From a virus (taxonomy: Duplodnaviria > Caudoviricetes): DNA of 42,367 bases. How positions within the stretch are numbered: the first letter of the stretch is position 1; each line of letters begins with the position of its first letter. Shown in pieces: positions 2,710-31,259 of this stretch. The translations under genes and the position numbers were made by a program. Where the stretch lies: positions 1 through 42,367 of the IMG/VR virus record IMGVR_UViG_3300016263_001470; one strand, 5' to 3'. The notes under the pieces are model-generated. The model did not search any database. It saw only the letters and a program-made list of their open reading frames with translations, and had not been told where the DNA came from.

Positions 2710-2966
2710 GTCAAGGGGTCCTACTTCTGTATCTCTTTTATTTTTAAATATATATAATATATAATAAAGAAGGGGGGTGGGAGGGGTGGGGGTGGGTGGG
2801 GGTAGTTTGACTTCCTCCGCCACAAACGAATGTAAAAATACGCAAAAACGCAACGGCCGCACGGCAACGAAGTTTAAAAACTACCCCCCACCCCCCACCC
2901 CCCAACCCTCGAATCTTTAACCCTCGAATCTATAACTACTTATAAAAGTACAGGTGGGTGGGGGTA
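2662..2966. repeat. Iteron/G-run region with AT-rich core; putative replication origin
   Basis: Five exact GGGTGGGGGTA copies in both orientations, AT tract ~2736-2769, direct repeat AACCCTCGAATCT at 2904 and 2919. Confidence 0.65.
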
Positions 2967-3953
2967 TCAACGACTGGTAATCTCGACAGTTTCGCGTTTA
3001 AAGTGGCCGTTACGGATAAGGTAGGCCGTCACCTTGGTTCCAGGGGAAAGACGTCGTACAGCCCTTATTAGGTCCCTTTGCGTGGCTATCTGGGTGTCTT
3101 CCAGGCTGACAATGATGTCCCCGACCATAAGGCCACAGCTTGTGACCACCTTGGTCACTTCCAATGCTTCGTCGGTAAGGGCCATCCCATGGCTCATCTT
3201 GACGGTCTTGCCAACCACCCCAAGGTAGCCCTTCTGGGCTACGGATCTGGAATCAATGAATTCTCGAATGTCGGCTGCTGGAATCGTATACGTAAACTCA
3301 GGAGCGTTATCCTTGACTGGTAGCTGGCCTACAGGAGCCGTATCCATGTTTCCAAGGACCAGCGCGATGACTTCACCCTTGCCATTGACCAGCGGGCCTC
3401 CGGAGTTGCCCTTGCGGGTCAAGGCATCGGTAAGGAGGTATCGCTCGCCCCGCTTGGTTCCGCTGGCCGACACGATGCCCTTGGAGATCGTCCTGGTAAA
3501 TCCCAAGGGATTGCCGATGGCGTATACTTCGGTGCCCGGCTGGACTGGAAACTCAAGGTTTAGGACCGCGGGGGTAAGTTTGATTTCCGCGTCCAGTTCG
3601 TTTTTGACCTTGAGTAAAGCAATGTCGGCGACCTTGTCGGCAAACAAAACCTCGGCTTCATAAACCACCGTGTCGTCGCCGTCCCCGGTGTGGATGTTGA
3701 TCTGGTCGGCTCCCTCGATGACGTGGGCCGCGGTGATGACACCTTCCTCGATGACCACGCCCGTTCCGCGCAGGCTTTGTTGTTTGTCGACGAAGTAGGC
3801 GTTGATCCGGACGACCGACTGTAGAATCTGGTTACCGGCTAAAAGAGGCGATACCAGACCTTGCGTAACCAGCAGTACGCCGAGAAAAAGGCCGCGGTAA
3901 GGAAGACGCAGATGGCGGCGCCCAAAAGCGCGGCTAGCGAGAAGACCAGGCAT
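2967..3953 (-). CDS. HtrA/DegP-like trypsin serine protease with C-terminal PDZ
   Basis: Triad motifs ITAAHVI, DIALLKV, GNSGGPL; AIGNPLG; PDZ-like GYLGV...GDII; hydrophobic N-terminus (start uncertain). Confidence 0.9.
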   Translation of the reverse strand: MPGLLASRAFGRRHLRLPYRGLFLGVLLVTQGLVSPLLAGNQILQSVVRINAYFVDKQQSLRGTGVVIEEGVITAAHVIEGADQINIHTGDGDDTVVYEAEVLFADKVADIALLKVKNELDAEIKLTPAVLNLEFPVQPGTEVYAIGNPLGFTRTISKGIVSASGTKRGERYLLTDALTRKGNSGGPLVNGKGEVIALVLGNMDTAPVGQLPVKDNAPEFTYTIPAADIREFIDSRSVAQKGYLGVVGKTVKMSHGMALTDEALEVTKVVTSCGLMVGDIIVSLEDTQIATQRDLIRAVRRLSPGTKVTAYLIRNGHFKRETVEITSR

Positions 3954-7342: not shown

Positions 7343-9129
7343 TTCTTGTACCTCTCCGCGTCGACCGCTTCAGCCCCGATTGGACAGCCTTGCAACCATT
7401 CGGGGGATTCACTCATGAGCCTTTCAATTTCACCAGCCGGAACGTTCTTGTCAACTTCACAAACCGCCTCGTCGTGAATATGCATGACGACCGGAATCCC
7501 GGCTTTTTCAAGACGCAATATCGACGCGCCCATAACGTCCCGCGCTACAGCCTGCACCAGGTTTTCGCAGAGTTTCCCGCCATAGAACGGTATCTGCGGA
7601 CCTCCTCGCTCGACGCACGCCGTCCAGGACGGCTTACGCATTTTGCCATCCTTGTCGTATTTCTGCTTCTCCGGCCACTGCGACATGATGTTGCGGTAGG
7701 TGAGGACACGACTACTGGGAAGACCAACCTCAAGCTGTTTGTCAGCCTTGGCGTTGTGAAAGTCGTTTTCCAGTTGCCTCCATAGCTGGAGAATCCCCGG
7801 ATTGCGTCCGCGAAAATCGTTGACGATCTCCTGGGCTTTTACGTCGGTCATATCAATTCCGTATTGCATCTTGGCGATCAGGGCAAACTTCTTGGCTCCC
7901 GCACCGTAACCAAGACCGAGCACCATGGCTTTGACCAGTTGGTACAGCGGAGCGTCTGTTTTCTTTAATGTCCCTTTAGGGCCATTCCATAAATTCATGT
8001 TTTTTGCCGCCGCTTCGTAGATGCCATACCCGTTCCTGATCGCCTCAAGGAGTCCTTCGTTGTCACACAGCCATGCAAGGACTCGTGGCTCAATCTGGGC
8101 AAGGTCGCAGATAATAAACTTCTTACCTGGCCGGGGTACGATGCAACCCCGTAAATCAACGCCGAACATTTCGTTTCGGGGAAGGTTCTGTACATTGAAC
8201 TTGGAGTCACCCGACCACCGTCCGGTGTGGGCGCCCATATATTTAAGCCCGTAACCCATTGAACCGTCAGGTCTTACGCGGGAGCGCATGACCTTCATTT
8301 TGGCAAGCAAAGAATTGGCCTTGCGCCAGTCCCGCATGATCGCAACAAACGGAACCTTGTCCCCGTACTGGGCCTCCCACAACGCGCACTCCTCCGAATT
8401 CTCCGCCATCGAGGTCGGCCACGGGATTCCAGCCTTCGCGCATTCACGGCGAAACGCCTTGGTCGAAAGCACAACGCCGTCGGTTTCGTCGATCCAGGGT
8501 AACGCGTTTTCGCATTCCCAGGTTTTGCGTTCCAGGGCTTTGATGCCTTTTTCCACCGCGTCTGTGTCCACATGCACTCCGCGCCAGCCCATGCTGATCG
8601 TGTGCCTGGAGAGCTCCTGCTCCATCGGCAAAAGATGCAAACCAAACTGCTCGTCGATCTTGTAGCAAGCCTCGGCGTCGTTCTTTGCGTACTCCAAAAC
8701 CTCCCTGCCAAACTCGGTGTTCTCAACATCGATCCACCGCTTGGAGTGCATCTTGTCCCGCGGGTCCTTGTCGATCTGCCTGTTTAGAAGTTCACGGGAG
8801 GCCCCTGCAAGATTGCGGGGCGCTCCCACGGCGACCGAAAGATTGGCGGTGCAGTCCCAAGCAACAGGCTTGGCTAAGAACTCACCTGCCTCGCGCAATC
8901 TCTCGATCACCGCGCCGTCAAAACTGTAGTTGTGGGCAATCCACCGGTGCCCGTTAATCTTGTCCCACGGAGCCTTTTTGGGGTCGCCGACGTAACTTAC
9001 ATCCGGCCCGTGGATTGCCACCATGTAAATGTCCGCCTTGTCGTGGCGCAGATAATGCCACTGGCCGAGCGTCGTGATGGAGATTTCCTTGTCGTAGTAA
9101 GTTTCAAAATCAATCGCGTAGGTATTCAT
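7339..9129 (-). CDS. polA: DNA polymerase family A with 3'-5' exonuclease
   Basis: AIDFET, AHNYSFD, HTGRWS, DLAQIEPR, KAMVLGLGYG, HIHDE. Confidence 0.95.
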   Translation of the reverse strand: MNTYAIDFETYYDKEISITTLGQWHYLRHDKADIYMVAIHGPDVSYVGDPKKAPWDKINGHRWIAHNYSFDGAVIERLREAGEFLAKPVAWDCTANLSVAVGAPRNLAGASRELLNRQIDKDPRDKMHSKRWIDVENTEFGREVLEYAKNDAEACYKIDEQFGLHLLPMEQELSRHTISMGWRGVHVDTDAVEKGIKALERKTWECENALPWIDETDGVVLSTKAFRRECAKAGIPWPTSMAENSEECALWEAQYGDKVPFVAIMRDWRKANSLLAKMKVMRSRVRPDGSMGYGLKYMGAHTGRWSGDSKFNVQNLPRNEMFGVDLRGCIVPRPGKKFIICDLAQIEPRVLAWLCDNEGLLEAIRNGYGIYEAAAKNMNLWNGPKGTLKKTDAPLYQLVKAMVLGLGYGAGAKKFALIAKMQYGIDMTDVKAQEIVNDFRGRNPGILQLWRQLENDFHNAKADKQLEVGLPSSRVLTYRNIMSQWPEKQKYDKDGKMRKPSWTACVERGGPQIPFYGGKLCENLVQAVARDVMGASILRLEKAGIPVVMHIHDEAVCEVDKNVPAGEIERLMSESPEWLQGCPIGAEAVDAERYKK

Positions 9130-20002: not shown

Positions 20003-20030
20003 TTGACACGTTCCACCCGGTTGATACTTT
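20003..20030 (+). promoter_or_regulatory. Capsid promoter
   Basis: TTGACA-16-TACTTT with TG extension. Confidence 0.6.
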
Positions 20031-20036
20031 TAACTC

Positions 20037-20230
20037 GTTCGGTGTAGGTATAAAGACTGAGACCCTTGCTGAACACTGACCTATAAAGATTGAGATGGTC
20101 AAAAATTCGGGCATTAAAAGCTCTGGGATGCCGCCAGGGAATAGTTTTGAATGTGGTAAGGGCGAATAGCTCCGTGCGGAGTTAACGCTACTTCCGCAAA
20201 TCATAACATCCCTTGCGAGAGCGGGGGATG
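20037..20230 (+). ncRNA. Structured 5' leader RNA of the capsid gene
   Basis: Five hairpins with G-U pairs, three with related loops, the last with a GAGA tetraloop. Confidence 0.6.
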
Positions 20231-20253
20231 GATGAAAGGATAAGTTAAACAAA

Positions 20254-21636
20254 ATGGCTACTACGTACTCCATCGAGCAGTTGCTCGTGAAGGAAGCTGG
20301 CCGTATCGGACCGGAGATCTATCGCCGGACGATCGACACTTCCGCTTGGCTCAAACTGACCAAGCAAGAACAGTTCCCCGAGGAAATGGGCGATGTGATC
20401 AGCTCGATGACTTTCGAGCGGTTCTATCCGTCCCGCGTTCTCGCCGGTGCTGGCAATACTAACGGTTACGCCGAAAATGAAATCACTGCTGACGCTGGCT
20501 CGGGCTGGCGCAAGCTGGGTTCCAACCCGGTTGACCAAACCTACGAAGACTTTAACGCCTACACCCAGACGATCTCTGGCGGTTCCACCCCTCCGGTGGC
20601 CTCCACGTCGACTGCCGGTAACGTTCTGCCCGCCACCCTCAACGGGGTGACTTTCGGCCAGAAACTTCGTCAGTACAGCCTGGAATGGGCCTCCATCGAG
20701 TCCCCTGACGTTGCCCTCGAAGACTTGCGCTTCGCGGTCAAGCGTCGTGAGCAGCTGTCCAACATCATGGACGTGCTGACTGAGTCGACATCGCTCGTGT
20801 GGCAGGATCGTTATCGCAATCAGTACACCTCCTCCGTCGCCGCCGAGGGCAACCTGGTTTACCCCAGCACCTCCTCGATCGTGGCTTCCACGAGCGCGAG
20901 CTCTGGTGACGCGAAGGTGATCTATGACGCGGTTACCACCGGAGTCGGCACTGCCGCTTCCGGCGCAATCACCGCGGCTAACCTGCCCAACAGCCAGCTG
21001 ACCCAGGGCATCCTCAAGCGGCTCTACATGAAGTTGATCCGTGATGGTGCCGGCACTAACGCCATGGGCCGTGAAAACGGCGCCCCGGTGTTCATGCTGA
21101 TCTGCGGTGCTGAAACCAGCGAGTCCCTCATCCGGCTCAATGCGGACATCCGTCAGGATTTCCGTTATGCGAAGCCCAATGAGTTGCTCACTCCGCTCGG
21201 CATCGAGCGCAGCTACGGCGGGTTCTACCACGCCATCGATCCGTATCCTCCGCGGTTCCGCGTGTACGATACCACGAATGACAAGCTCATCCGTACGTAT
21301 CCGTTCAAAAAGGAAACCACGACCAAGGGTACTGCGTACAACATCAACAGCGAGTACGAGACCGCAGCCTACGAACTGAGCTACATCTACCATCAGGATG
21401 TGTTCCGTTCCGTGGTTCCGGGTCCGGTCAACACCGCCAACAAAATGAGCTTCAACCCCCAGAATTACCGGGGTGAGTTCAAATGGGTCAACATCCTTGA
21501 CCGTCAGACCAATCCGGATGGTAACGTGGGTTACTTCCGTGGCGTTCTGGCCAACGGTGCCCGTGCGATCTTCCCGCAGTATGGCTATGCCATCCTGCAC
21601 AAGCGCGCGGCGATCAGCCTCGACTACGTTAGCTAA
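20254..21636 (+). CDS. Major capsid protein
   Basis: 460 aa after scaffold; strong RBS (AAAGGA); strongly biased codons. Confidence 0.85.
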   Translation: MATTYSIEQLLVKEAGRIGPEIYRRTIDTSAWLKLTKQEQFPEEMGDVISSMTFERFYPSRVLAGAGNTNGYAENEITADAGSGWRKLGSNPVDQTYEDFNAYTQTISGGSTPPVASTSTAGNVLPATLNGVTFGQKLRQYSLEWASIESPDVALEDLRFAVKRREQLSNIMDVLTESTSLVWQDRYRNQYTSSVAAEGNLVYPSTSSIVASTSASSGDAKVIYDAVTTGVGTAASGAITAANLPNSQLTQGILKRLYMKLIRDGAGTNAMGRENGAPVFMLICGAETSESLIRLNADIRQDFRYAKPNELLTPLGIERSYGGFYHAIDPYPPRFRVYDTTNDKLIRTYPFKKETTTKGTAYNINSEYETAAYELSYIYHQDVFRSVVPGPVNTANKMSFNPQNYRGEFKWVNILDRQTNPDGNVGYFRGVLANGARAIFPQYGYAILHKRAAISLDYVS

Positions 21637-21904: not shown

Positions 21905-21911
21905 TTGAATC

Positions 21912-21942
21912 GATCCCCCGGGGGCAATTCCCCCGGGGGATC
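21912..21942 (+). terminator. GC-rich hairpin, probable terminator or mRNA stabiliser
   Basis: GATCCCCCGGGGG-CAATT-CCCCCGGGGGATC, 13 perfect bp; weak U tract. Confidence 0.65.
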
Positions 21943-21959
21943 ATACTTACTGAGGTTTT

Positions 21960-26816: not shown

Positions 26817-27349
26817 TTTATGCGCTGGTTTTGGCGTCTTTATTTGGCCTGGGTCCCGGAACCGGAGCTTTGGCGGGAGACCCAGCGGCGGGACGTCCGG
26901 GAAATGAAAAAGTTATTCGAGTGGCTAGAGGAACCATTGGATGGCGAGAGGAGTCTGGAAACTCCGGGCCCCTGGTGGACAAAATCCTCGCATCGGTCGG
27001 ATTAAAGGGATCAAAGGCTCCGTGGTGCGCGGCCTGGGTGGTATATGTCGGAGATGAAGCATTCGGAAGGGAACAGAACCCCTACCCGCGTTCTGCTTGG
27101 AGCCCCGATTTCGTTAAACGTCCGGACTGGAACCGGGGGCGAGGAACGAGGCCGGGCCCGGCCGACGCCTTTGGGATATATTTTCCAAGCCTTGGCCGCG
27201 TGGCTCACACGGGGTTGGTGGAAAAGCTAGAAGGCAAAATGGTGGTTACCATCGAGGGAAACACCAACGACGATGGTAGCCGGGAGGGGGATGGGGTCTA
27301 TCGCAAGCGACGGCCTCTTGATACAATGTTGGCCAAGAGGTGGTTATGA
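26807..27349 (+). CDS. CHAP-domain endolysin with signal peptide
   Basis: PWCAAWV, HTGLV, TIEGNT; N-terminal hydrophobic stretch ending in ALA. Confidence 0.85.
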   Translation: MRVIYALVLASLFGLGPGTGALAGDPAAGRPGNEKVIRVARGTIGWREESGNSGPLVDKILASVGLKGSKAPWCAAWVVYVGDEAFGREQNPYPRSAWSPDFVKRPDWNRGRGTRPGPADAFGIYFPSLGRVAHTGLVEKLEGKMVVTIEGNTNDDGSREGDGVYRKRRPLDTMLAKRWL

Positions 27350-27759
27350 GTATTCGACTAGGCGCCATAGGTGTTCAGAGGGTTTCGGCCAAGCTCCTTT
27401 CCCAAGGGTTTTTGGTCAGCCTTCCCGTTTACGACGATGGATACGATCTTGTGGTCGATTGGAAAGGTAAACTTAGCCGTGTCCAGGTTAAATGCACTTG
27501 CGGTAGCGAAGACAGTCGCCGCAACAAGTTTAAGTTTCTGGCAGTCAAAGGCCCTGGTTTTGGCGTGTCACGATTTCGCGGACCAGATGGAGGCATTAAA
27601 CGGATATACAATAAAAGCGATTGCGACGCCTTTGTTTTTTACCACACGGCACAGGATATCTTTTTTGTCATGCCGACCGGAAAACTCCCAAAAACCAAAT
27701 CTGTTTACTTTGACCCTAATTCCAAATGGAGGGACAACTGGTCGGTCCTGAAAGCTTGA
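27346..27759 (+). CDS. PD-(D/E)XK endonuclease (homing-endonuclease-like)
   Basis: GAIG...YDLVVD...RVQVKC...CDAFVF; ATGA coupled. Confidence 0.75.
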   Translation: MSIRLGAIGVQRVSAKLLSQGFLVSLPVYDDGYDLVVDWKGKLSRVQVKCTCGSEDSRRNKFKFLAVKGPGFGVSRFRGPDGGIKRIYNKSDCDAFVFYHTAQDIFFVMPTGKLPKTKSVYFDPNSKWRDNWSVLKA

Positions 27760-27790: not shown

Positions 27791-29233
27791 ATGAGTTTTC
27801 CCAATCCCGACAACTACGGAAATAGCTGCGATTGCGGCCCAACAAATTCGACGCCGGCTCCCTCTCAGATTCAAAGTGAAATAGACGCCATCGAAACTAA
27901 CTTGGCGGCTCACGAAGCCGCGTATACAAATGTTCACGGGATAGGCGATACGTCTGTTTTGGCTACTATAAATTCCGCATCAAACCTTATTCCAAGATAC
28001 GCATTTGGGTGGCCAGCAAACAGGCTGACTTCTCTTCCCGCAGATCCGTCCTTTATTGGGGCAGCGACCGCATATTCGGGAACAGAACTTTCCGGTTTTC
28101 ATGTTATGTATGTTCCTATTTTTATCGGTAATAATGTGAGTGGATTTCCCAGACTTTTTCTTCCAAAAACAAATACTTCATCTTTAATTGTAAAAGCTTC
28201 TATTTTGGGCGGAGACCCGACAACCGGCGGATTTCTGACACCCGTCTATACGTGGCCTTCCGGCGGGGGAACAAGTCTTGCGTATCCCGAGGACGGATTT
28301 GTTTCCTGGACTGCCGGATCAACCGCTTCATTTAATCGCGGGTTGTATTTTATAGCTTTTAGATTTGAGTCCGGGGCTCAAAACGGAATTTATGTGATGG
28401 ATACTTCTACCACAGTAAATCAACGCCCAACTCTTTCTGAAATTACTTTTAGAACTCCGGCATTTTCTTATTATAGTTTCGATAGCGCCAAAATAATCCG
28501 TGTCGGGTCTATTCTGCGTAGGTATCTTGCTGCTCCTCCATGGCCTCCGGTTGACAATATAACCAATTTAAATCCATGCGCCGAATTTACTGGGAAAAGA
28601 ATCGTTGAAGTTGACGGGCCAGCAGCAACCCCACAAAACGCAAATTCGACAAGTGTAAGTTTTGTGACCCAAGGTTGGTCCGGAAGTATTACAAGAGCAA
28701 ATGACGCGGTTTATCCAGGCCCGACACTGGTCTCGACATCACCAAGCCCAGCAGGTGGGTGGAATTATTTGACTTCCGCCAACCCAGGTGTTTATAATGC
28801 TTCTACTAGCTCTTATTTTGAAGTTTTAGTAACCCCCTCGTCAGGAACTTCTGGAACCGTCACGCTGACAGGTTTTGAATTTTATTCAAGATCAACAGGA
28901 TCCGGGCCTACAAACGTGACCGTTGCGTTTTTGGACTCTGCAAATAATGTGTTAACTGTTTCCGCTTTTACTGTTCCCACTACTTCCGTTTGGACTTTGC
29001 TTACCGGGACCGTATCCGTTCCGATAACTGTTAGCACTTCTGCCCCGTCATTTAAAGTAAGAATTTACGGATCTGGTGGATCTGCTCCGTCCGCTTCCGG
29101 GAATTGGAGGATCGACGGTTTTAAACTCACAGGATCTTATGCAAGCTCGATTGCTCAATATTCTTTTTCAGAGATATTGCCTCTTTTCTACTTTGGGTTT
29201 AGTAATGTAGTAAGTGGAGGCTCCGGTCCATGA
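27791..29233 (+). CDS. Putative tail fibre/receptor-binding protein
   Basis: N-terminal AHEAAYTNVHGI fibre-type motif; S/T/G-rich beta domains. Confidence 0.6.
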   Translation: MSFPNPDNYGNSCDCGPTNSTPAPSQIQSEIDAIETNLAAHEAAYTNVHGIGDTSVLATINSASNLIPRYAFGWPANRLTSLPADPSFIGAATAYSGTELSGFHVMYVPIFIGNNVSGFPRLFLPKTNTSSLIVKASILGGDPTTGGFLTPVYTWPSGGGTSLAYPEDGFVSWTAGSTASFNRGLYFIAFRFESGAQNGIYVMDTSTTVNQRPTLSEITFRTPAFSYYSFDSAKIIRVGSILRRYLAAPPWPPVDNITNLNPCAEFTGKRIVEVDGPAATPQNANSTSVSFVTQGWSGSITRANDAVYPGPTLVSTSPSPAGGWNYLTSANPGVYNASTSSYFEVLVTPSSGTSGTVTLTGFEFYSRSTGSGPTNVTVAFLDSANNVLTVSAFTVPTTSVWTLLTGTVSVPITVSTSAPSFKVRIYGSGGSAPSASGNWRIDGFKLTGSYASSIAQYSFSEILPLFYFGFSNVVSGGSGP

Positions 29234-29389
29234 GCCTTAACAGCAGGTGGTCGGCTCGGGGGTATGCGGTCAACCGCAGGTTTTTGCCAACCTCGGCGAA
29301 AATGCTCCCGGAGGTAGTCGTAGCCCGCGGATCAGCTAGGCCGAAAGGTTTAGTCCCGACGGGCAACCATCTGCTGTTAGGGCTTATGG
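29228..29389 (+). ncRNA. Unassigned highly structured RNA
   Basis: 24-bp closing helix (3 G-U) enclosing a multibranch fold with a GAAA tetraloop. Confidence 0.7.
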
Positions 29390-29423
29390 TAAAGCCTAGT
29401 TAGTCTAACAAGAGGAGAACAAA

Positions 29424-31259
29424 ATGAGCTGCGATTGCAACACACTTATTGTTGGTGAAGCCGGGCCCCAGGGACCGCAGGGGCTTGCAGGTACAAACGG
29501 AACTAACGGCACTAATGGAATCAATGCGTTTACCACGCTGACCACCCAGTTTACCCAGCCCGCGGTTAGCGGAAGTGTGACAATTGTGGTTGGAAACAAC
29601 CAGTGGATTGCCACCGGTCAGGCGATTTATATCTCTGGAGCTGGTTTTTATACTGCCACGTCTTTTTCGGGCACCACAGATGTTGTTTGTACTTTGGTCC
29701 AGACCGACGGAATAGCCCCGGGTAATCCCGTTTCTTCGGGTAGAAAAATATCTCCGTCCGCTATTGCAACATACGCCGCTCCACTCTCTTCCCTAACTGT
29801 TAATGGCGATTCCTCCCTGGACGGAGCCGTTGTCGTCAATGAAACCGGTGCGGATAAAGACGTGCGGGTTGAGGGGGATACCGACACAAATCTACTGCGA
29901 ACCGACGCCAGCACTGACCGAGTTGGAATTGGTATCGCCGCCCCAGAAACCAAGTTTCATGTGGCCGGTGGTTTTAAGGTGGGAACAGCCGCCTCCGGTG
30001 CCGATGCATTGTTTACCCAAGCAGCCACCTTTAACGATAACCAGGCTTCCGCAGGTGATTTTGCCGTTAAAAGTCAAAATTTTTCTGCCGCTCTGTTTGT
30101 AGACGCTAGTACCGACCGTGTTGGGATTGGGACAAATACTCCGGCCAAACTTTTGGACGTGGCCGGCGCTATGGAAACCAATACTATTCTGGTCAATCCA
30201 GCAGGTGTTGCGGGCACCGAAGTCCTAAAAGTGCTTGGAACAAGCAGCGCTGTTCCCCTTGTCGTGGACGCCACCAACAATCGGGTTGGTATTAAGACAG
30301 CCAGCCCGTCCGTTGAACTGGACGTTACCGGTGCTGCAAAAATCAGTGGCAATCTCGCCGTGGATACAAATGTTTTATTTGTCGACACGTCGACAAATCG
30401 AGTCGGGATAAACGACGCCACCCCGAGTTACAGTCTCGATGTGACTGGTGATGCCAACATTACTAGCACTCTTGACGTTGGCGGAAATACAAATATCGTA
30501 GGAGATCTCGGGGTGACAAGCGGCACTCTAAGCGTGTCTGGGACCTCCACATTAGCCGGGGTAAACGCTTCGGGAGCCGTAACTGTTGGCGGAAATTTAA
30601 CGGTCGATACAAGTACTTTGTTTGTTGGCGCAACAGACAATTTTGTGGGAATTAGAACTACCACCCCGATAACCGACGCTTCTTTAATAATCGGATCCGG
30701 GGATTTAAGAATAGGAACTAATGTTCTTTTTGTGGATGAATCAATCGCTTCCATTGGTATTAACAATGGAACCCCAACTGCTGAATTAGATCTTATTGGA
30801 GACGCTAAAATCAGCGGCGATCTGGCGGTCGACAACAATGTTTTGTTTGTTAACTCATCTTCAAATAAAGTTGGAATTAAAAACTCAACCCCATCCACCG
30901 AATTGGATGTGACCGGGGCAGTACAGGCTACTTCTTATCAAATTGAAGCTTCAGCCGGTAAACTTACAAAAATTTATTTTTTTACCGGAAGTGCAAATAC
31001 ACTGAATATAGCTCCGAATGCTTCTCAGAGTTTTACTGATATTGTTACTGGAGCTGCGATAGGTGATTTTGTTATTTCATCTTTATCCTCAGTTCCGGCT
31101 ACGGCTAATTTTACTGATGATGTTGTTTTTGTCAGTAAAATAACAGCAGCAGGTACAGTAACTTTTACCTATACAAACACAGACGCAAGCGGGTCAACCA
31201 CAACCTACACAGATTCTGTTACTCTTAATCATATTGTAATCCGCGCCGCCGCGTCATGA
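29424..31259 (+). CDS. Tail fibre protein
   Basis: Short collagen-like GPQ/GTN run; repeated LFVD..NRVGI..P..LDV.G units; AGAGGAG RBS. Confidence 0.8.
   Translation: MSCDCNTLIVGEAGPQGPQGLAGTNGTNGTNGINAFTTLTTQFTQPAVSGSVTIVVGNNQWIATGQAIYISGAGFYTATSFSGTTDVVCTLVQTDGIAPGNPVSSGRKISPSAIATYAAPLSSLTVNGDSSLDGAVVVNETGADKDVRVEGDTDTNLLRTDASTDRVGIGIAAPETKFHVAGGFKVGTAASGADALFTQAATFNDNQASAGDFAVKSQNFSAALFVDASTDRVGIGTNTPAKLLDVAGAMETNTILVNPAGVAGTEVLKVLGTSSAVPLVVDATNNRVGIKTASPSVELDVTGAAKISGNLAVDTNVLFVDTSTNRVGINDATPSYSLDVTGDANITSTLDVGGNTNIVGDLGVTSGTLSVSGTSTLAGVNASGAVTVGGNLTVDTSTLFVGATDNFVGIRTTTPITDASLIIGSGDLRIGTNVLFVDESIASIGINNGTPTAELDLIGDAKISGDLAVDNNVLFVNSSSNKVGIKNSTPSTELDVTGAVQATSYQIEASAGKLTKIYFFTGSANTLNIAPNASQSFTDIVTGAAIGDFVISSLSSVPATANFTDDVVFVSKITAAGTVTFTYTNTDASGSTTTYTDSVTLNHIVIRAAAS

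What the first reader, a model, noticed from the sequence alone, without database searches (positions are those of the whole stretch)
29228..29389. Unassigned ~160-nt multibranch RNA between two tail fibre genes
Seen: 29228-29251 pairs with 29366-29389 over 24 contiguous bp. The only non-Watson-Crick pairs are 3 G-U, which points to + strand RNA-level selection. Arm 1: CGGCT/AGTCG and CGGGGGTAT/ATGCTCCCG, carrying hairpins GCGG-TCAA-CCGC and AGGTT-TTTGCC-AACCT; TTTTGCC can also pair with GGCGAAA (pseudoknot or switch). Arm 2: GCCCG/CGGGC, CGG/CCG and GCTAGGCC-GAAA-GGTTTAGT. The helix buries the upstream stop codon and ends just before the next RBS. I do not recognise the family. Inference: an RNase III-released small RNA, a ribozyme, or a regulator of fibre stoichiometry. 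A 57-codon ORF (29230-29403) also spans it.
Basis: seen in the sequence. Interest (0 to 1): 0.8.

Follow-up and report, generated by a model that had tools for sequence, protein, structure and literature searches.

The report
Orphan pseudoknotted RNA in phage operon
A freshwater phage carries, between two virion genes that abut directly in its relatives, a one-of-a-kind 162-base insert predicted to fold into a long stem topped by a pseudoknotted domain, which is likely cut out by a host enzyme as a small RNA of a family nobody has described.

Summary
The fold is real: 24 contiguous pairs (3 G-U) close a multibranch domain; z = -9.45 on +, -4.48 on -; the inner domain folds only on + (z -3.55 vs -0.46). 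It is the only helix of 20 bp or more in 819 kb of this phage and 12 relatives. In 41 of 42 scorable relative loci the two genes are -4 to 12 nt apart, so this is cargo, not a needed fibre regulator. No Rfam match, no homologue anywhere searched, so covariation is untested; the 57-codon ORF has no relative among 5.8 billion proteins. Ribozyme, intron, tRNA and retron marks were not found. Best reading (0.38): an RNase III-released, trans-acting structured RNA, likely a protein-binding decoy. Singleton; function untested. A better-supported side find: a covarying, Rfam-negative leader RNA at 20031-20253 in 13 of 13 phages.

The parts
29228..29251 (+). 5' arm of the 24-bp closing helix; includes the last codon and stop of gene A and the ATG of the 57-codon ORF
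29366..29389 (+). 3' arm of the 24-bp closing helix (3 G-U pairs; A/U-rich middle at pairs 10-15); predicted RNase III substrate
   Evidence: substrate length from PMC3867540 section 7; cleavage inferred
29252..29320 (+). Arm 1: 5-bp helix (29252-56/29316-20), 7-bp helix (29257-63/29304-10) closing a three-way junction with hairpin 1 (29265-78, loop TCAA) and hairpin 2 (29280-29303, loop AACCTC)
   Evidence: z -2.62 on +, -0.56 on -
29290..29315 (+). Predicted pseudoknot: loop ACCTC 29290-29294 pairs with the whole bulge GAGGT 29311-29315 (5 Watson-Crick pairs)
   Evidence: both segments unpaired in the nested ensemble (0.69-1.0); null 0.0008-0.0023 (Watson-Crick), 0.0017-0.019 (G-U allowed)
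29323..29364 (+). Arm 2: 42-nt hairpin with a 4x1 internal loop (ATCA 29331-34 / C) and a GAAA tetraloop (29343-46)
   Evidence: z -3.94 on +, -1.74 on -
29218..29397 (+). Weak outer extension AGGCT 29218-22 / AGCCT 29393-97 that would cover part of the GGAGG in front of the small ORF
   Evidence: pair probability only 0.27-0.35 in wider context
29230..29403 (+). 57-codon ORF overlapping the gene A stop (ATGA), GGAGG 9 nt upstream; no homologue; probably not a conserved protein
27791..29233 (+). Gene A, 480 aa: family-wide N-terminal anchor (about 30-60 aa) fused to a rare swapped C-terminal module; likely virion adhesin or fibre
29413..31259 (+). Ribosome site (AGGAG 29413-17) and gene B, 611 aa, tail-fibre-like; its start region is conserved in relatives

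Best explanation
The stretch is a plus-strand, strongly folding insert found only in this phage at a gene junction that is tight in its relatives, and it is likely an RNA gene carried as cargo: host RNase III would cut the 24-bp stem of the late transcript and release a roughly 135-nt RNA, predicted to be pseudoknotted, that likely acts in trans as a protein-binding decoy. Shown: sequence, computed fold, strand bias, lineage-specific presence, no known family. Inferred: it is transcribed as part of the late operon (no promoter above chance nearby); it came in with the swapped C-terminal module of gene A, since the 3' arm is complementary to that module's own last codon and stop; a double cut near the middle of the stem frees the two-arm core, closed by about 10 bp, while gene A keeps its stop and gene B keeps its own ribosome site. 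Speculative: the target. A compact pseudoknot plus a GNRA-capped hairpin with a 4x1 loop looks like a protein-binding surface, and the phage precedent is RNA mimicry that blocks host defence (pseudo-ToxI).
For: Fold far beyond chance and strand-biased: z -9.45 vs -4.48; inner domain -3.55 vs -0.46; 11 of 66 MFE pairs are G-U. Only helix of 20 bp or more (at most 30% G-U, span under 400 nt) in 819,173 bases, both strands, of the window and 12 relatives. 24 uninterrupted bp exceed the 22-bp ideal RNase III substrate, and a regular helix allows cuts in both strands (PMC3867540, section 7 read). The core has more order than a processing stem needs: pseudoknot null 0.001-0.002, GNRA loop. Cargo: gaps of 10, 11, 12 or -4 nt in 41 of 42 scorable loci (36 distinct sequences); the exception (L173, 111 nt) is a short leftover reading frame with a weak fold, -19.7 kcal/mol over 125 nt. 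Gene A's end is native to its module: relatives end in GGSGP, SGGSGV, TSGGHSA. Phage RNA decoys exist (PMC3594212, passages read).
Against: Singleton: no homologue, so no covariation and no conserved nucleotides; the covariance model came from one sequence and is insensitive. No promoter, terminator or expression evidence of its own. The host, its RNase III and its defence systems are unknown; RNase III box rules were not mapped onto the helix. The pseudoknot was found after the fact and its geometry (9-bp hairpin folding back on a 7-bp helix across a tight junction) was not modelled; allowing G-U the null rises to 0.019. A late transcript is late for a counter-defence RNA (inference). No resemblance to any known antitoxin or CRISPR-repeat RNA in Rfam.
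Confidence: 0.38

Rival explanations
1. A cis-acting element of the late mRNA: the stem is cut or stalls decay and so changes the output of gene A against gene B and the genes behind it; the three-way junction with a loop-to-3'-strand pseudoknot could act as a roadblock to 5'-3' decay, in the manner of a viral xrRNA.
For: It sits exactly between the two genes and covers the gene A stop. Closing helix, two hairpins and a loop-to-downstream pairing is the xrRNA plan, and xrRNAs block bacterial RNase J1 (PMC5760640, passages read). A new fibre module may need a new ratio (inference).
Against: 41 of 42 relative loci, with gene A lengths from 125 to 720 aa, do without it. No ribosome-site switch: opening energy 5.4 vs 7.6 kcal/mol, relatives 5.0-11.9. 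In mosquito-borne flavivirus xrRNAs the strand before P1 is single-stranded; here it is paired. Arm 2 is unexplained.
Confidence: 0.22
2. A selfish or neutral leftover that rode in with the swapped module: a miniature inverted-repeat element, an intervening-sequence-like insert, or a retron-type RNA that has lost its reverse transcriptase; RNase III removal would make it harmless.
For: Single lineage; 24-nt imperfect terminal inverted repeats; ATGAGC stands on both sides (29230-35, 29424-29). L173 shows that module swaps leave junk at this junction. End-paired RNA with short hairpins and one long stem-loop is the retron msr-msd outline (PMC7736814, passages read).
Against: One copy in the window; no match of the model in the 12 hits from the species-genome scan; the ATGAGC repeat is explained by two native start contexts (L047 overlap, conserved gene B start). 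The 5' arm is gene A's own coding end. No reverse transcriptase in 0 of 9 records, controls rang in 3 of 14, though the window is only 61% of the genome. Plus-only folding of the core and the pseudoknot argue for selection on RNA.
Confidence: 0.18
3. A self-cleaving ribozyme of an undescribed class, as often found between phage genes; the helix / bulge / helix / two hairpins plan with a loop-bulge pairing recalls the twister topology (recalled, not from a call).
For: Size, pseudoknot and intergenic position fit.
Against: No Rfam family at E up to 10; no hammerhead, hairpin, twister, pistol, group I or group II core motif on +, and 0 hits for an HDV-like descriptor (motifs recalled). Few unpaired junction bases are left for a catalytic core. 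A 24-bp closing helix would hold the products together.
Confidence: 0.12
4. A small gene silenced by its own mRNA: the 57-codon ORF is real, and pairing of its 3' end with its start keeps it off until ribosomes from gene A open the stem, as in type I toxin mRNAs.
For: ATGA overlap with the gene A stop, GGAGG 9 nt upstream, frame open in only 5.3% of shuffles; gene callers list it.
Against: Only itself among 5.8 billion proteins; none by tblastn in viral or metagenome contigs; no Pfam, PHROG or Atlas hit; no membrane-like stretch in the sequence; base use unlike its neighbours (third-position G+C 0.65 vs 0.36-0.43).
Confidence: 0.06
5. A DNA-level feature: an invertible segment between 24-bp repeats, or an assembly fold-back.
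For: 24-nt inverted repeats, 88% complementary, next to fibre genes.
Against: All three departures are G-U on +; the core folds on + only; no promoter inside; no joint or strand change in the contig laid (contigs drop rare variants).
Confidence: 0.03

Closest known systems
RNase III-processed stems in phage and bacterial transcripts (T7 intergenic sites, pre-rRNA stems, 23S intervening sequences; examples recalled, substrate rules from PMC3867540)
   Same: A two-turn regular helix placed right at a stop codon, enclosing a removable segment.
   Different: The enclosed 114 nt form their own two-arm, pseudoknotted domain; present in one lineage only; cleavage not shown.
Retron msr-msd RNA (PMC7736814)
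   Same: Paired ends, two short hairpins in the 5' part, one long stem-loop in the 3' part, about 160 nt.
   Different: No reverse transcriptase beside it or in 9 records; the two hairpins are enclosed by further helices; G-U-rich arm 2 does not keep its 8-bp tip helix in the complementary DNA.
Flavivirus xrRNA (PMC5760640)
   Same: Three-way junction with pairing of the second hairpin loop to the strand just 3' of the closing helix.
   Different: 5' strand is paired, not threaded and single-stranded; no conserved xrRNA nucleotides tested; a DNA phage.
Phage RNA decoys, pseudo-ToxI of phage PhiTE (PMC3594212)
   Same: A lineage-specific, phage-encoded pseudoknotted RNA is the proposed working analogy.
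   Different: ToxI is a 36-nt unit from tandem repeats; this is one 162-nt unit with no repeat and no Rfam match.
Twister and other small self-cleaving ribozymes; bacterial SRP RNA domain IV (both recalled)
   Same: Loop-bulge pseudoknot plan (twister); 4x1 internal loop plus GNRA loop (SRP).
   Different: Core nucleotides absent by motif scan and no Rfam hit.

Membership tests
Any Rfam 15 family | Covariance-model match | tested here: not met
   0 hits at gathering score in the window; 0 at E up to 10 in 29100-29500
RNase III substrate | Regular helix of about 22 bp | tested here: met
   24 contiguous bp, 3 G-U; criterion from PMC3867540 section 7
RNase III substrate | A-U pairs at proximal-box positions 2 and 4 in a cleavable register | not tested
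   Box positions were not mapped; pairs 10-15 are mostly A-U or U-G
RNase III substrate | Cleavage by the enzyme | not testable with these tools
   Needs an in vitro assay or RNA ends
Retron | Paired ends enclosing 1-3 hairpins and a long stem-loop | tested here: inconclusive
   Outline fits but the hairpins are nested in two further helices
Retron | Contiguous reverse transcriptase gene | tested here: not met
   Next gene is tail-fibre-like; PF00078 in 0 of 9 records, controls 3 of 14; window 61% complete
Retron | Stable msDNA hairpin on the complementary strand | tested here: inconclusive
   Both strands of arm 2 give -8.4 kcal/mol as DNA, but the complement loses the 8-bp tip helix
Known self-cleaving ribozymes (hammerhead, HDV-like, twister, pistol, hatchet, hairpin) | Catalytic core nucleotides in the right structure | tested here: not met
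   Rfam; recalled-motif scan and HDV-like descriptor, 0 core hits on + apart from two CGAAA words
Known self-cleaving ribozymes | Self-cleavage | not testable with these tools
   Needs transcription and assay
Group I / group II intron | Core boxes or domain V, and splice-site letters | tested here: not met
   No R/S box, no 5' GUGYG, no domain V word inside the element (motifs recalled); no Rfam hit
xrRNA | Three-way junction with loop-to-downstream pseudoknot | tested here: inconclusive
   Predicted only; no covariation
xrRNA | Single-stranded 5' end passing through a ring | tested here: not met
   Upstream strand is paired in 29252-56/29316-20 and the 24-bp helix
tRNA / tmRNA | ARAGORN call | tested here: not met
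   0 genes in the window
Miniature inverted-repeat element | Several copies with shared ends and a target duplication | tested here: not met
   One copy in the window; 12 pattern hits in species genomes, none matching the model; no duplication directly flanking the arms; host genome unknown
Type III antitoxin mimic | Tandem 35-50-nt pseudoknot repeats | tested here: not met
   No repeat family at this place among those listed; no Rfam hit

The most novel reading that the evidence does not exclude
The founding member of a new class of pseudoknotted phage RNA, a new ribozyme or an anti-defence decoy, that is inherited together with a swapped receptor-binding module, so that changing host range brings the matching RNA with it.
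Probability: 0.25. Interest if true: 0.85.

Novelty: new variant of a known kind. Interest (0 to 1): 0.5.

Why it matters
If released and functional, it is a phage small RNA of no known family, compact enough to synthesize and test in a week for RNase III cleavage, self-cleavage, pseudoknot formation and protein partners. Linkage of an RNA to a host-range module would be a new way for phages to pair entry with counter-defence. It also shows what covariation-based surveys miss: the largest survey of phage RNAs required at least three matching regions (PMC10690425, passages read), so singletons like this fall through. If it is only a processing stem or a leftover, it is a minor curiosity.

Tried and rejected
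Homologue searches, all empty: blastn in 50,697 phage records (one 36-nt piece, E 9) and 72,556 plasmids (two pieces, E 2 and 7); exact patterns in IMG/VR (1 hit inside an unrelated coding region; 67 hits, best model score E 0.06, partial); the small ORF as a proxy (20 and 597 pattern hits, none confirmed); single-sequence covariance model on 12 related records, 48 and 100 loci, 50 and 49 further virus records; nhmmer over 2.09 Mb of held loci. No locus with gene A's C-terminal end was obtained: P0002 (54% identical) and P0006-P0008 are known only as proteins. Sequencing runs: one holder, possibly the source; no RNA holder listed, which is no evidence on expression; two runs of the same study laid nothing. 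Antisense idea: a 17-nt perfect match to the mRNA of a 197-aa gene in two relatives; in the own window the best complementarity score is 14.5, reached by 127 of 300 shuffles; in G001 2 of 150, but that phage lacks the RNA; rejected. Ribosome-site switch: rejected. Recoding into gene B: gene A, the small ORF and gene B are in three different frames (coordinates). Diversity-generating retroelement: no template repeat listed, no reverse transcriptase. Literature: ten searches answered (listings and abstract starts) showed no description of this RNA. In PMC10690425 four short motifs were sought in 3 of 6 held supplement files, no hit; the two zip files, one spreadsheet and three oversized files were not searched and may hold the alignments. 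Gene A model was too poor to name a fold.

Full report
Setting. The window is a whole IMG/VR virus record, 42,367 bases, 61% complete; the one sequencing run that holds the element is a freshwater metagenome and may be its source. It encodes a DNA polymerase, helicase, exonuclease and terminase, then a plus-strand late operon. A 68,656-bp contig with the same proteins exists elsewhere but could not be read. In the late operon most genes lie within 40 nt of each other; the 190-nt gap between gene A (27791-29233) and gene B (29424-31259) is an exception, and the best folded gap (z -8.0).

The observation. The 24-bp helix is as described, with 3 G-U pairs and no mismatch. The 162 nt fold at -95.2 kcal/mol, z -9.45, against -68.5, z -4.48 for the other strand. 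With the closing helix removed the core still folds on + (z -3.55, 1 of 300 shuffles) and not on - (z -0.46), so the signal is not just an inverted repeat. That exposes the loop AACCTC, whose last five bases are fully complementary to the whole five-base bulge GAGGT at 29311-15. Both are unpaired in the nested ensemble. Permuting loop bases gives such a match in 0.08% of 100,000 trials, drawing from the element's composition 0.23%, and 0.17% and 1.9% with G-U allowed. Using the same pairing in a nested fold costs 7.9 kcal/mol. So a loop-bulge pseudoknot is likely but was found after the fact and has no covariation behind it. A Logan contig of the probable source run spans the region unbroken and without variants.

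It is cargo. Twelve of 12 related IMG/VR records have gene A followed by gene B at 10-11 nt or a 4-nt overlap. Of 36 metagenome loci, 30 showed both ends (6 ran off their contig); with the 12 above that is 42 loci, 36 distinct sequences: gaps of 10 nt (18), 11 (14), 12 (7), -4 (2) and 111 (1). The 111-nt case is a weakly folding leftover of another gene's start. Gene A keeps a short N-terminal anchor and swaps everything behind it; our module is rare, with four full-length relatives at 36-56% identity. Their ends match ours (GGSGP, SGGSGV), so the stop is native and the 3' arm of the RNA is complementary to the module's own last codon and stop. I infer that the RNA travelled with the module and has lived beside it for some time; the DNA of those relatives could not be fetched.

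No family, no homologue. Rfam gives nothing; ARAGORN nothing. A model built from this one sequence found only itself in the 12 relatives, in 216 further loci and in 99 further virus records; blastn, nhmmer and pattern scans were also empty. These are weak tests for a diverged RNA. The 57-codon ORF has an overlap start and a GGAGG, and an open frame arises in 5.3% of shuffles, but it has no relative among 5.8 billion proteins or in viral and metagenome contigs.

Mechanism. Bacterial RNase III's ideal substrate is 22 bp, and regular helices are cut on both strands (PMC3867540, section 7). The 24-bp stem with an A/U-rich middle fits. A double cut would free the two-arm core with about 10 closing pairs, leave gene A its stop and gene B its ribosome site. 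That the core has its own order (three-way junction, predicted pseudoknot, 4x1 loop, GNRA loop) and that relatives run the same junction without it point to a job away from the junction. I commit to a released RNA that binds a protein as a decoy, by analogy with pseudo-ToxI (PMC3594212, passages), at 0.38; release is the firmer half, the decoy role the weaker. Rivals: a cis element for mRNA processing or stability (0.22; xrRNA-like plan, PMC5760640 passages, but no ribosome-site switch and the 5' strand is paired); a mobile or retron-like leftover (0.18; outline fits PMC7736814, but no reverse transcriptase in 9 records, and one copy); a new ribozyme (0.12; no known core); a self-silenced small gene (0.06); a DNA inversion or artefact (0.03). 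An antisense target was tested and rejected.

Comparison and novelty. It works most like an RNase III-excised RNA in a phage transcript; it fails or cannot complete the membership tests for retrons, known ribozymes, introns, xrRNA, tRNA, miniature repeats and type III antitoxin mimics. Ten literature searches showed no description; part of the supplements of PMC10690425 could not be searched. I rate it a new variant of a known kind, with a 0.25 chance of being a new functional class. Interest 0.5: real and testable, but a singleton with no function shown.

Side finding. The gap in front of the 460-aa gene at 20254 holds a sigma-70-like promoter and a structured leader conserved in 13 of 13 phages of the family, with 16 of 50 named pairs changing on both sides, 98.5% of cells paired, 0 of 500 shuffles as high, and an invariant candidate pseudoknot; no Rfam hit. 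It has the comparative support that the assigned element lacks and deserves its own follow-up.

Noticed in passing
window 20003-20253 (+); relatives L127, L130, L134, L138, L141, L144, L149, L151, L155, L159, L163, L165: Promoter-like TTGACA (20003) and TACTTT (20025), 16 nt apart, then an approximately 220-nt structured leader before the 460-aa gene (likely the major capsid gene by position; untested). Conserved in 13 of 13 phages; 16 of 50 pairs change on both sides, 0 of 500 shuffles as high, slid controls 37-48% paired. Two hairpins share nearly the same 13-nt loop (20050, 20083); an invariant block at 20108-20141 can form an H-type pseudoknot (GGCAT with ATGCC; invariant, so untested by covariation). 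No Rfam hit at E up to 5. Candidate new cis-regulatory or antiterminator RNA.
   Followed up: partly
window 8827-8914 (-), inside the DNA polymerase gene: 88-nt hairpin with a 19-bp stem on the coding strand, alignable in 13 phages; 9 of 40 predicted pairs change on both sides, weaker in the two most distant; no Rfam hit. Coding constraint not separated from structure. A 38-nt imperfect direct repeat flanks it (8732, 8939).
   Followed up: partly
window 2775-2908: G-run / C-run inverted repeat in a gene-free stretch; relatives L145, L150, L155, L160 have a similar 17-bp repeat about 300 nt apart. Possible origin or G-quadruplex region.
   Followed up: no
window 27340-27759 (+): Free-standing PD-(D/E)XK endonuclease (PF11645, E 2.8e-15) between the endolysin and gene A, also present in L042 and L043.
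   Followed up: no
window 21911-21943: Near-perfect G/C-rich hairpin between two short genes, with similar sequence in several relatives; terminator- or processing-like.
   Followed up: no
L173:3971-4087: At the same junction a relative carries a 111-nt leftover that starts with the same ATGA overlap and encodes a truncated 33-aa frame: module swaps at gene A bring along the start of the donor's next gene.
   Followed up: yes
L185:4804-4940 (-) and L199:4380-4516 (-): 19-bp inverted repeat 137 nt apart inside the gene B homologue.
   Followed up: no
window 2967-3953 (-): Phage-encoded trypsin-like protease with a PDZ domain (HtrA-like).
   Followed up: no
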